Source: Octopus sinensis
Lineage: Eukaryota
Direction: 5' to 3'
DNA: 16,651 nt
Assembly (NCBI RefSeq): GCF_006345805.1
Contig: NW_021825128.1
Location: 1-16,651 of the forward strand
The stretch's first letter is position 1. Every line of letters starts with the position of its first letter. The notes beneath the pieces are model-generated. The model was given only the letters and a program-made list of their open reading frames with translations, did no database searches and was not told where the DNA came from. Position numbers and translations under genes: made by a program. Below, piece after piece: positions 1 to 7,238 of the stretch.

Positions 1-234
1 CGGTGTCAAGTAATGCTAGGGGGACAACACAGACACACAAACACACATACATATATATATATACATATATACGTCGGGCTTCTTTCAGTTTCCGTCTACC
101 AAATCCACTCACAAGGCATTGGTCGGCCCGGGGCTATAGCAGAAGACACTTGCCCAAGATGCCACGCAGTGGGAGTGAACCCAGAACCATGTGGTTGGTT
201 AGCAAGCTACTTACCACACAGCCACTCCTGCGCC
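1..234 (-). mobile_element. tRNA-derived SINE, family A (head, CORE-like segment, internal TA/TG microsatellite); 3' part runs off the window start
   Basis: Minus strand reads GGCGCAGGAG-TGGCTGTGTGG (A box)...GGTTCACTCCC (B box)-...CTTGGGCAAGTGTCTT. Near-identical to 3123-3356+5595-5626 and to the reverse complement of 14125-14370. Confidence 0.9.
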
Positions 235-265
235 TATATACAACTGTATACAAAATGTATTGTAA

Positions 266-2954: not shown

Positions 2955-3146
2955 CTCTTTTACTCTTTTACTTGTTTCAGTCATTTGACTGCGGCCATGC
3001 TGGAGCACCGCCTTTAGTCGAGCAAATCGACCCCGGGACTTATTCTTTGTAAGCCCAGTACTTATTCCATCGGTCTCTTTTGCTGAACCGCTAAGTAATG
3101 GGGACGTAAACACACCAGCATCGGTTGTCAAGCAATGCTAGGGGGA

Positions 3147-3183
<37 letters not shown>

Positions 3184-3356
3184 CACACACACATATATAT
3201 ACATATACATATATACGACATACTTCTTTCAGTTTCCGTCTACCAAATCCACTCACAAGGCATTGGTCGGCCCGGGGCTATAGCAGAAGACGCTTGCCCA
3301 AGATGCCACGCAGTGGGACTGAACCCGGGACCATGTGGCTGGTTAGCAAGCTACTT
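2955..3356 (-). mobile_element. SINE family A, body and tail; head interrupted by the 3357-5594 insertion
   Basis: Matches the reverse complement of 14147-14525. Tail is (GTAAAAGA)2. The sequence breaks after GTTAGCAAGCTACTT and resumes at 5595. Confidence 0.92.
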
Positions 3357-3527
3357 TATTTCAAAACATTTGCCATAAAGGCAGTACACAGATTAAGTTA
3401 GCTTTGCGGGCTGGACGAGGACATTAATGAGGTGAATGATAATGAAAGAAAGATGATAAGGATGGAGAAGACAAAAGCGCCCGCCGACTTTCGCTTCTCT
3501 AAACATTTGTTCTTTTTAAAGATAAAC

Positions 3528-3654
3528 ACAAAACGAGGTATTAAACCTCTTACCATTTTTCCAATTTTTGGACTTAGCAGTCCATTATTAATACAAAACG
3601 AGGTATTAATCCTCTTACAATTTTTCAATTTTTGGACTTAAGTCCATTACTAAT
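3528..3654. repeat. Two tandem ~65-bp units in the element's 3'UTR, each with two short hairpins
   Basis: ACAAAACGAGGTATTAA(A/T)CCTCTTAC...TTTTTGGACTTA(GC)AGTCCATTA starts at 3528 and at 3593. Confidence 0.9.
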
Positions 3655-4893
3655 AATACATATCGTCCTCGAAATAGCTTGTGCCCGCGCCCTCCACCAT
3701 CAACCACGCCTCCCTCAGAACGTAATCAAGTTCCGAGTTCGCGTCGCCCGGGACCAAGTTATAATCTTCATTGAGCTCCCCTAGCCCAAGCGTCACGTCG
3801 AACGCCACGGCCTCCACAGCTACCTGCGGAGGCCATTCGGGGTCCTGTGTGAAGGCCAAAGGTGCTCTCCTGTAGTGCTCCTCCATCACCCCTTCAACTT
3901 CTCCTCCTCTATAGAAGAGGACCAATACGTTCAGTTCTTTCGTTGGCGGCACAGTTCCCGCCAACGGTATTCCTTCTCTTGTCGGTGGCACAACCCCAAC
4001 CGACGTAGTTCCGGGACATTCCGGTGCTTCACTGACAGCCGGTAATGTCCCGTTTTTCTTCCTCTTTTTCTTTTTTTTTCCCTTTTCAACTGAGGGAGGG
4101 TGCGTCTCCTCCGTGGCTGGAAGATTCGCCTCCTCTCCTCATCCCTATTATCCTTTGGTGAGCACCCTTGTTGCTCACCTTCCTCTTTCGGCCTCTGTTT
4201 GAGGAGTCCTCTGCTTTCTCGGCCGTTATCGTTCCCTCTTCTAGAGGGGTTTTACTTAACTGTTCCGGGATCCTATTTTGTTCCCGAGGACAGTTCTTTT
4301 ATGTGGCCGGACTCCAAGCACCGATGACACTTAGGGGGGTACCCTCAAGCATCCCCGGGTACCTGCACCCGGCCTTTTCCAAAAAATCTCTGGAAGAACC
4401 AGATTGGCTGATTGGGTCCACAGGGTCAAAATTGCTTTTGACCCAACCCAAGCAGCCGCAGGAAGAACTTTTACATTGAGGAGCTTAGTTTCGCTGTCAC
4501 CCACCCACCCCGGCGGATAGTCTCCTCTATCCACTCGGGTTCTATGTCGGGTGGCAATCCGCAAATCCAAGCTTTCATCAATTTCTTTTTTTTGTACGTG
4601 GGCAGGAATAAGATTCCTTACCCTCCAGGGGTTTGCTAGCAAATTTGCAAGCCTCTTCAGGGGTGTCAAATAGCAACCACACCGTTGCATATTTGACACC
4701 CCTGGAAATGAATTAATTGTTGGCAAATACTCTTCCAACTCCTCCTCAATTGCCGTCTTTTCGAATAGGCGATGGTCTGTGTCGAGTGCCTTGGAGTAGG
4801 TTCTCAACACCACCGTCCTATCTTCACGGTCTTTTAACCACTTTTTAGGTGGTATGATTTCCCACTCCAAAATTTTGTAATTTTCATTGCCAT
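3650..4893 (-). pseudogene. Frameshifted LINE ORF1p/gag-like protein (~400 aa): RRM-like region, CCHC zinc knuckle, basic NLS-like patch, acidic C-terminal domain
   Basis: Manual re-framing from ATG 4893 (context AAAACATGG) gives MAxNENYKILEWEIIPPKKWLKDREDRTVVLRTYS...EEYLPTI/FISRGVKYATVWLLFDTPEEACKFASKPLEGKE/LFLPTYKKKKLMKAWICGLPPDIEPEWIEETI.../PPKCHRCLESGHIKxNCP (CX2CX4HX4C, 4329-4290). A further open frame at 4138-3650 contains KGKKKKKRKK and ends EDDMYY*. Needs several 1-2 nt indels. Confidence 0.72.
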
Positions 4894-5483
4894 GTTTTTT
4901 TTAAAATATATTAAATTAAACTCAAAAAGCAGGAAGAAAAAAGTTCAAAAGTCCAAATAAAAATTTGATAGATTTTTGAAAAACAAAAAGGAAAGGAGAA
5001 AGCACAACAGAAGGAAGAAATCAACGGAAAGTCGCAATAAAGAAAAAAAACAAAAGGGGGAGGGAGGTAAATGAAGTTCAAAAGAAAGTAATAAAACAGA
5101 AAAAAACACAGCAAAAATATTTTGGCCTTGCGGTACTCCCGGCCTGGGTTGAACCTGGAACGCCGCAACTGCAACACAACCTCCACAAAAATGGGTCCGA
5201 AAGGTAATCCAATAGTGGCTTATTTTTAAATTTTCTTGCGAAGTACTCTGACAAGGGAATAATTCAACAACCCAAACACAGCACTGGCTACCGCCAACGG
5301 TAATTTTAACAGTAACTGTATTGAATTCGAGGATACGCCCCTCCACTATTTTTTCTTTTTTTTCAATGAACACAAAAACGGCAGCCGCCGAGAGCAGGCG
5401 AAATTGTCTCAGAGTTGGACACAACTTACTGAAATAATAATTGGCACGCAATAAATTATGCCCAACTCACAATAAACAAAATC

Positions 5484-5594
5484 ACTTACCTCGACAACTT
5501 TCCGTTTTTGGTCTTTTTTCTTTAATTGGACGGAGCTGGTTGATTCGCGTCCACTCTGGCTGAACAGGAAGCAACTGACTAACTGCGCATGTGC
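5484..5594 (-). promoter_or_regulatory. Putative internal Pol II promoter/first exon of the element and a consensus 5' splice donor
   Basis: The element starts GCACATGCGCAG (NRF1-like), TTAGTCAGTT (Inr-like), GCTTCCTG (ETS-like). GAG|GTAAGT with the intron G at 5489. Confidence 0.4.
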
Positions 5595-5626
5595 GTTAGC
5601 AAGCTACTTACCACACAGCCACTCCT
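5595..5626 (-). mobile_element. SINE family A 5' head (A box) separated from its body
   Basis: GTTAGCAAGCTACTTACCACACAGCCACTCCT is identical to 198-229. Confidence 0.9.
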
Positions 5627-6518: not shown

Positions 6519-6725
6519 TCCTTTACTTGTTTCAGTCATTAGACTGCGGCCATGCTGGGGCACCGCCGGGAAGAATTTTCAGTCGAATGAACTGAGACCC
6601 GTACTTCTTTTTAAAGCTTGGTACTTATTCTATCAGTCTCTTTTGTCGAACCGCTAGCTTACGGGGACGTAGATACACCAATACCGGTTGACAAGTGGTG
6701 AGCGGGACAAACACTGACACACACA

Positions 6726-6802
<77 letters not shown>

Positions 6803-6831
6803 CATATATACGACGGGCTTCTCTCAGTTTC
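6519..6831 (-). mobile_element. SINE family A, headless (tail, microsatellite, short central part)
   Basis: Homologous to 2966-3236. Homology stops abruptly at CTCAGTTTC (6831). Confidence 0.88.
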
Positions 6832-6843
6832 AATCTCCAAATA

Positions 6844-7238
6844 AGGCGAGCTGCCAGAAACGTTAGCACGCCGGGAGAAATGCTTAGCGGTATTTCGTCT
6901 GTCGCTACGTTCTGAGTTCAAATTCCGCCGAGGTTGACTTTGCCTTTCATCCTGTCGATTAAATAAGTACCAGTTGCGCACTGGGATCGATATAATCGAC
7001 TTAATCCGTTTGTCTGTCCTTGTTTGTCCTCTCTGTGTTTAGCCCCTTGTGGGTAGTAAAGAAATAGGTATTTCGTCTGCCGCTATGTTCTGAATTCAGA
7101 TTCCGCTGAGATCAACTTTGCCTTTCATCCTTTCGGGGTCGATAAATTAAGTACCAGTTACGCACTGGGGTCAATGTAATCGATTGGGCTCCCTCCCCCA
7201 AAATTCCGGGCCTTGTACCTAGAGTAGAAAAGAAAAGA
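6844..7238 (+). mobile_element. Composite/dimeric SINE family C: head + unit 1 with a stem-loop tail + headless unit 2 with a different tail
   Basis: GGTATTTCGTCTG...GA(G/A)TTCA(A/G)ATTCCGC...AAGTACCAGTT...AATCGA is repeated at 6889 and 7067 (period 178). The two tails are unrelated. Confidence 0.88.

What the first reader, a model, noticed from the sequence alone, without database searches (positions are those of the whole stretch)
3342..5609. Complete ORF1-only 'half-LINE' with a 15-bp TSD: candidate undescribed non-autonomous retroelement
Seen: 2,238 bp bounded by a perfect 15-bp TSD, with a ~700-nt 5'UTR, one ~400-codon reading frame (RRM-like region, CX2CX4HX4C, K/R patch, an unfamiliar acidic C-terminal domain), a ~290-nt 3'UTR and a terminal AATAAA. 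There is no room for, and no trace of, RT or endonuclease. Established: normal LINE truncation removes the 5' end and keeps ORF2's 3' end (as at 14760-15386), which is the opposite of this structure. ORF1-only elements are known as HAL1 in vertebrates. Inference: a non-autonomous family that supplies its own RNA chaperone and borrows ORF2p from an L1/Tx1 partner. I do not know of one described in cephalopods.
Basis: partly seen in the sequence, partly recalled or inferred. Interest (0 to 1): 0.8.

Follow-up and report, generated by a model that had tools for sequence, protein, structure and literature searches.

The report
Half-LINE family targeting an octopus SINE
This is one broken copy of a large family of jumping genes that encode only a predicted RNA-binding protein, sit at one exact spot inside a very common short repeat in every copy checked, and likely borrow their copying enzyme from a full-length LINE found at that same spot.

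Summary
The insert (3357-5594, minus strand) is real and is not a one-off deletion. The genome holds at least 152 exact 3' ends of its family. 65 full-length copies examined are ORF1-only, with unique flanks.

30 of 30 copies picked by element sequence alone end at the same base, between the A- and B-box-like motifs of an abundant SINE (at least 67,951 empty sites). A 5.45-kb LINE with endonuclease and RT (L1/Tx1 group; one intact copy, L225) ends at the same base in 30 of 30 copies and shares the last ~37 nt. Several sister ORF1-only families share the site. Their ORF1s form one deep lineage, only ~27% identical to the partner's, under purifying selection (dN/dS 0.09-0.28).

Corrections: this copy's ORF is broken by 11 indels; only ~9-11 bp of the '15-bp TSD' is true duplication; AATAAA is completed by target bases; there is no poly(A). 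Trans-mobilisation by the partner is inferred. It works like HAL1 or HeT-A but is neither. No description found in nine literature searches; Repbase and Dfam could not be searched.

The parts
5610..5625 (-). 5' half of the host SINE head, with an A-box-like motif
   Evidence: matches the intact SINE copy near window 41-236; same flank in most copies. A-box label is recalled knowledge
5595..5609 (-). upstream 15-nt repeat: about 9-11 nt duplicated target plus about 5 nt of SINE-like leader that travels with the element
4894..5594 (-). 5'UTR, 701 nt; at least three alternative 5' starts exist in the family
3650..4893 (-). ORF1 (414 aa in intact copies): two predicted RRM-like domains, CCHC knuckle, K/R-rich linker, C-terminal alpha/beta domain; broken here by 11 indels
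4290..4329 (-). CX2CX4HX4C zinc-knuckle codons; a 2-nt deletion near 4299 breaks the frame in this copy
   Evidence: Pfam zf-CCHC in L011 E=0.0077, below the gathering cut-off
3357..3649 (-). 3'UTR, 293 nt, with a 65-bp tandem duplication (3528-3655); no poly(A)
3357..3392 (-). terminal ~37 nt shared with the autonomous partner (78% identity) and with sister families
   Evidence: E=0.036, the best DNA match between the two elements
3342..3356 (-). downstream copy of the SINE target site
2960..3341 (-). rest of the host SINE (B-box-like motif, body, CA/TA repeat, likely tail); left end approximate

Best explanation
The insert is a frameshifted copy of an ORF1-only retroelement family that sits at one fixed base inside the head of an abundant SINE, and it is likely copied there in trans by the endonuclease and reverse transcriptase of a 5.45-kb L1/Tx1-group LINE found at the same base. 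Shown: copy number, fixed termini, site, partner anatomy, shared 3' end, selection on ORF1. Inferred: the element's RNA is coated in cis by its own ORF1p (predicted two RRM folds plus knuckle); the partner's ORF2p recognises the shared ~37-nt 3' end, nicks the SINE bottom strand at CTACTT/ACC and primes reverse transcription at the AA of the junction rather than in a poly(A) tail; the second nick lies about 9-11 nt away; the cDNA ends in a few SINE-derived bases carried from the donor locus, which anneal to the target and make the duplication look like 15 bp. Insertion separates the A- and B-box-like motifs, so it would likely silence that SINE copy while avoiding genes.
For: 19 other full-length copies at 94-95% identity among 40 candidates scored of 3,142; 152 exact 3' ends; 30 of 30 followed by the SINE site; 1,115 exact element-target junctions against 29 for the reversed control. 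Partner: 83 exact 3' ends, 30 of 30 at the site; ORF1 467 aa plus stop-free ORF2 1,130 aa with EN, YADD and zinc-finger motifs in L225; Pfam Exo_endo_phos, RVT_1, zf-RVT; best PDB match human L1 ORF2p E=1e-54 against R2 1e-18. Older partner relatives (L218, L219, L228) end at the same site, while the more distant families whose 3' ends could be read (L211-L214, L220-L223, L226, L229) end elsewhere. ORF1 homology to the partner 27-28%, E about 1e-19. Of 30 junctions in genome order, 20 have ORF1-only-type and 10 partner-type 3' ends. dN/dS 0.09-0.28 between lineages. 5'-truncated partner copies with a SINE 5' half directly upstream (L063, L170). Contigs of public runs under other organism codes cross the 3' junctions (X13 record 11; X20 record 32).
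Against: No assay shows trans-mobilisation; sharing of site and 3' end is circumstantial. The shared 3' match is short (E=0.036). Most between-lineage dS values are near saturation (pS 0.59-0.72). Selection on the C-terminal domain is unclear (0.32-0.49 in three distant pairs, 0.64 and 2.5 in two close pairs with few changes), and sister copies L011/L012 give 1.1 on 10 differences. L022 shows a 15-nt match that includes a rare variant, so duplication can reach at least position 11. No autonomous element with an ORF1 close to the short elements was found among 20 loci, so the parent is unknown. Tx1 membership of the partner was not tested with named references.
Confidence: 0.87

Rival explanations
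1. Composite hitchhiker: the ORF1 cassette landed once in a SINE and the whole SINE-cassette-SINE unit has since moved as one, mobilised by the SINE's own LINE, so the common site is inherited.
For: Every copy has SINE halves on both sides, and the upstream junction bases follow the element subfamily.
Against: The downstream SINE half varies among copies of one subfamily and mirrors the empty SINE pool (main variant 12 of 30 occupied, 45 of 100 empty, Fisher p=0.68). The partner, its older relatives and several short families all use the site. 5'-truncated partner copies sit in the site. Head-to-tail arrays of different elements lie inside one SINE.
Confidence: 0.05
2. Recent or recurrent internal deletion of ORF2 from the partner LINE, with a passive ORF1.
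For: Shared 3' end and target; HAL1s arise by internal deletion (PMC4494074 passage).
Against: ORF1s are only ~27% identical to the partner's and form their own side of a 100/100 branch of length 1.58; almost no DNA similarity apart from the 3' end; dN/dS well below 1; a C-terminal domain not detected in 3 autonomous ORF1s or 153 other homologues.
Confidence: 0.05
3. Processed pseudogenes of a host RNA-binding gene, or an LTR/retroviral gag remnant.
For: CCHC knuckle; one annotated Octopus gene model (P0001) is 64% identical; an Atlas look-alike cluster carries ZCCHC3 RNA-binding domains (score 0.91).
Against: Fixed non-poly(A) ends, one target site, several diverged families, no terminal repeats, and the closest homologues in the genome lie upstream of APE/RT ORF2s. 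P0001 groups inside the short-element ORF1s. Its exon structure was not checked.
Confidence: 0.02

Closest known systems
HAL1 (half-L1) of mammals
   Same: Non-autonomous, encodes only ORF1p, forms families (PMC5753468 passage).
   Different: Here ORF1 is RRM+CCHC type with no Transposase_22 hit, there is no poly(A), insertion is sequence-specific, and the host is an octopod. The original HAL1 paper (PMC2923044) was not held.
Tx1-clade target-specific LINEs (Tx1L in Tx1D; Keno; Kibi; Koshi; Tx1-Mar) and SINEU
   Same: APE-type LINE inserting into another repeat; a non-autonomous passenger inferred from shared target; tandem insertions; flank-derived 5' extensions (PMC4494074 passages).
   Different: Targets named in the passages read are DNA transposons, LTR elements, snRNA/5S genes, satellites and microsatellites, not a SINE head. 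[quoted passage not shown]
HeT-A of Drosophila
   Same: ORF1/Gag-only, targeted, conserved Gag, borrows Pol from a partner at the same location, head-to-tail arrays (PMC5537684 passages).
   Different: HeT-A is telomeric, has an oligo(A) end and a host function; this family is dispersed, interstitial and of the L1 group.
Octopus L1-Tx1 repeats in automated annotations
   Same: L1-Tx1 families are listed as recently active in O. vulgaris (13 families, 421 insertions; PMC13282606).
   Different: Parts 1-2 of 3 of that text and a term search of its one supplement mention no ORF1-only families or SINE targeting; its sequence library could not be seen and may contain these families unlabelled.

Membership tests
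HAL1 | Encodes ORF1 only, no ORF2 | tested here: met
   65 full-length copies, 1.96-2.40 kb
HAL1 | Amplified as its own family with fixed termini | tested here: met
HAL1 | ORF1 of mammalian L1 type (Transposase_22: coiled coil, one RRM, CTD) | tested here: not met
   only zf-CCHC in Pfam; model has two RRM-like domains plus knuckle
HAL1 | 3' poly(A) tail (feature recalled, not from a call) | tested here: not met
   0 of 30 copies
Tx1 clade (partner LINE) | ORF2 with APE endonuclease, RT and C-terminal zinc finger, L1-group affinity | tested here: met
Tx1 clade (partner LINE) | ORF1 of RRM/CCHC type | tested here: met
   zf-CCHC E=2e-5; homology to the modelled RRM region; called consistent with Tx1 in PMC5203782
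Tx1 clade (partner LINE) | Target sequence preference | tested here: met
   30 of 30 at one base
Tx1 clade (partner LINE) | RT phylogeny groups it with named Tx1 elements | not testable with these tools
   no informatively named relatives among the hits looked up
HeT-A | Telomeric location | tested here: not met
   copies dispersed inside chromosome-size contigs
tRNA-derived SINE (host repeat) | tRNA-like head with A and B boxes | tested here: inconclusive
   box-like motifs seen by eye; no tRNA hit in Rfam; ARAGORN calls a tRNA only at a relaxed threshold
Octopus OR2 CORE-SINE (host repeat) | Match to the published consensus | not testable with these tools
   name seen in PMC4758252; no sequence on hand
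LTR element or provirus | Terminal repeats, pol/integrase | tested here: not met
   no terminal repeat beyond the target repeat and no pol in the insert

The most novel reading that the evidence does not exclude
A three-tier parasite system new to description: a LINE lineage that has long targeted the promoter head of the dominant octopus SINE, exploited by an old clade of ORF1-only elements that outnumber it about two to one, keep their own ORF1 under selection, and use a private C-terminal domain to capture the partner's ORF2p, with target-derived bases at both RNA ends guiding the exact junctions.
Probability: 0.3. Interest if true: 0.82.

Novelty: new variant of a known kind. Interest (0 to 1): 0.63.

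Why it matters
It makes two open questions testable. Why a non-autonomous element keeps ORF1: here several lineages keep it under selection beside a known partner, so cis need for ORF1p and ORF2p capture can be assayed. How APE-type LINEs achieve base-exact targeting: an intact natural partner, a defined site with tens of thousands of natural variants, and passengers that share only ~37 nt define the minimal signals. It also shows that an apparent TSD can be partly carried by the element, and that an abundant SINE can serve as a safe harbour.

Tried and rejected
Expression: no RNA holder on record; the runs laid were contigs only, so transcript ends, splicing and poly(A) site could not be read. 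Rfam found no tRNA in the SINE. The C-terminal domain gave no usable hit in Pfam, the Atlas, Foldseek PDB or viral (none at E<=0.001) or VIA-align (best Z 5.1, rmsd 2.8, 66 aligned, generic ferredoxin-like folds); this does not show a new fold. The whole-ORF1 model is poor beyond residue 205 (mean pLDDT 48). Search for a parent with a close ORF1: none among 20 loci picked by endonuclease similarity (18-36% identity in the pieces found). One degenerate junction pattern was mis-sized and gave only 24 hits; replaced. No paper holds ZCCHC3, Tx1 and ORF1 together. Earlier scan findings: none in three look-ups. The ORF2 fragment near window 14,980-15,360 is only ~55% identical to the partner's ORF2 and does not end at the SINE site, so it is not the partner. 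Two homologues without a recognisable knuckle (P0228, P0245) were left out of the tree.

Full report
Observation. The insert lies on the minus strand, 5594 to 3357, between two exact 15-nt repeats. The flanks are the two halves of a SINE; an intact copy of the same SINE lies near window 41-236. Many of the indels sit in short base runs and may be assembly errors (inference). AATAAA is formed across the junction and no poly(A) follows.

A family, not a deletion. A DNA search of the own genome (G000) scored 40 of 3,142 candidates and returned 19 other copies spanning the whole insert at 94-95% identity, plus copies that share only positions 350-2238. A 25-nt pattern from the element's own 3' end has 152 exact matches. 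Among 70 loci examined (30 best-scoring, 40 in genome order), 65 distinct full-length copies were found, 1.96-2.40 kb, in three 5'-end subfamilies, none with an ORF2, with unrelated outer flanks except in tandem cases; 6 have an ORF of 390 aa or more. In the 40 genome-order loci, 36 of 41 3' ends had a 5' junction about 2.0-2.4 kb upstream, so truncation is rare.

Site specificity. The first 30 matches of the element-only pattern are all followed by the same SINE base. The empty site has at least 67,951 exact matches. The element-target junction 16-mer has 1,115 matches against 29 for the control. The downstream SINE variant is the common one in 12 of 30 occupied and 45 of the first 100 empty sites (counted by hand; Fisher p=0.68). 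So insertions sampled the existing SINE pool, which argues against a composite unit.

The TSD. In 47 copies of the two subfamilies closest to the window copy, 20 have a downstream variant at positions 10-15; 18 of these keep CTAAC upstream, one (L022) matches the variant, one differs on both sides. All 13 copies of the third subfamily carry their own upstream motif whatever the target variant. Some junctions show one extra base. The duplicated part is therefore about 9-11 bp and the rest arrives with the element (inference: SINE bases in the RNA's 5' end, as discussed for SINEU and R2 in PMC4494074).

The partner. Of the first 30 of 231 exact junctions, 10 have the 3' end of an ORF2-coding LINE and 20 have ORF1-only-type ends from several families (sorted by eye). 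Full-length partner copies are about 5.45 kb with the same two junctions. The partner's own 3' pattern has 83 matches and 30 of 30 examined are at the site, mostly 97-99% identical to L069. L225 holds a stop-free ORF1 (467 aa) and ORF2 (1,130 aa) directly upstream of a short element in one SINE. ORF2 has Exo_endo_phos, RVT_1 and zf-RVT and is closest to human L1 ORF2p among solved structures. The best DNA match between short element and partner is the last 37 nt, 78%. Of 20 loci taken by endonuclease similarity, the closer relatives L218, L219 and L228 end at the same site, ten distant ones end elsewhere, and the remaining older loci had no readable 3' end. Named homologues come from Octopus species and Argonauta.

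The protein. AlphaFold2 on nine sequences gives two alpha/beta domains (residues about 17-205, block pLDDT 45-85) that match tandem RRM proteins (Foldseek best E=9e-5; VIA-align La RRM Z 9.3, rmsd 2.8, 84 aligned), then a low-confidence tail. The C-terminal ~95 aa are conserved across families (7 invariant residues in 13 sequences) and fold with pLDDT 74, without a specific structural match. The short-element ORF1s (7 rows, including P0001) form one side of a 100/100 branch, away from 4 autonomous ORF1s and 9 other homologues (midpoint root only). My Nei-Gojobori count on natural intact copies gives dN/dS 0.09-0.28 between lineages over the N-terminal ~200 codons, including 0.14 and 0.21 for unsaturated pairs, 0.24-0.39 over the whole ORF across subfamilies of this family, and 1.1 for two sister copies. 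ORF1 has thus been needed by the master elements; the C-terminal domain's selection is unclear.

Mechanism. Most likely (0.87): target-primed reverse transcription in trans by the partner's ORF2p, with ORF1p supplied in cis. Endonuclease-determined targeting follows established knowledge of Tx1-type LINEs (PMC4494074). RNA recognition through the shared 3' end, priming at the junction AA and read-through into the SINE are inferences. Unexplained: 7 of 65 copies have another guild member directly upstream, against about 1.6% site occupancy (p=9e-5; the occupancy figure rests on exact matches), while none of 30 has one directly downstream.

Comparison and novelty. It works like HAL1 and HeT-A but fails membership of both. 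The partner meets three Tx1 features; its RT phylogeny was not testable. Nine literature searches listed no paper describing an ORF1-only Tx1-type family, a SINE-head-targeting LINE, or either in cephalopods. Seen as passages: PMC4494074, PMC8869645, PMC4758252, PMC5753468, PMC8967140, PMC5203782, PMC3747384, PMC4640811, PMC5035012, PMC5537684, 10.1101/445429. Seen as parts 1-2 of 3 plus a supplement term search: PMC13282606. Not seen: PMC2923044, Kojima and Fujiwara 2004, Repbase, Dfam, and supplements of the other papers, any of which may hold a prior entry. Verdict: new variant of a known kind; interest 0.63.

Noticed in passing
   Followed up: partly
window 5546-5552 and L069:3192-3198: The heptamer GGACGCG lies at the same distance (positions 43-49) from the 5' junction in the short element and in the partner; similar motifs occur nearer the start in sister families. 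A promoter element is possible.
   Followed up: no
window about 5486-5495 and partner 5'UTR: Splice-donor-like GGTAAG near the start of both 5'UTRs; no RNA data to test it.
   Followed up: no
L005, L016, L019/L225, L023, L078, L114, L135, L140, L230: Head-to-tail arrays of different elements of the same target guild inside one SINE copy.
   Followed up: partly
L080, L050, L054 and the 350-2238 group: Mosaic elements: the 3' part of the window's family joined to other 5'UTRs or another ORF1 N-terminus, suggesting recombination or template switching between families.
   Followed up: partly
L211, L226, L212, L221, L222: Other Tx1-like families, three copies with stop-free ORF2s of 1,129 aa (L211, L212, L226), ending in AATAAAG and inserted outside the SINE; their targets were not studied.
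   Followed up: no
window 41-236, 6609-6950, 14122-14463: Further copies of the host SINE in the window, without an insert.
   Followed up: partly
window 11842-12445 (minus): Decayed RT-like reading frames of another LINE by eye; no Pfam hit for two pieces.
   Followed up: partly
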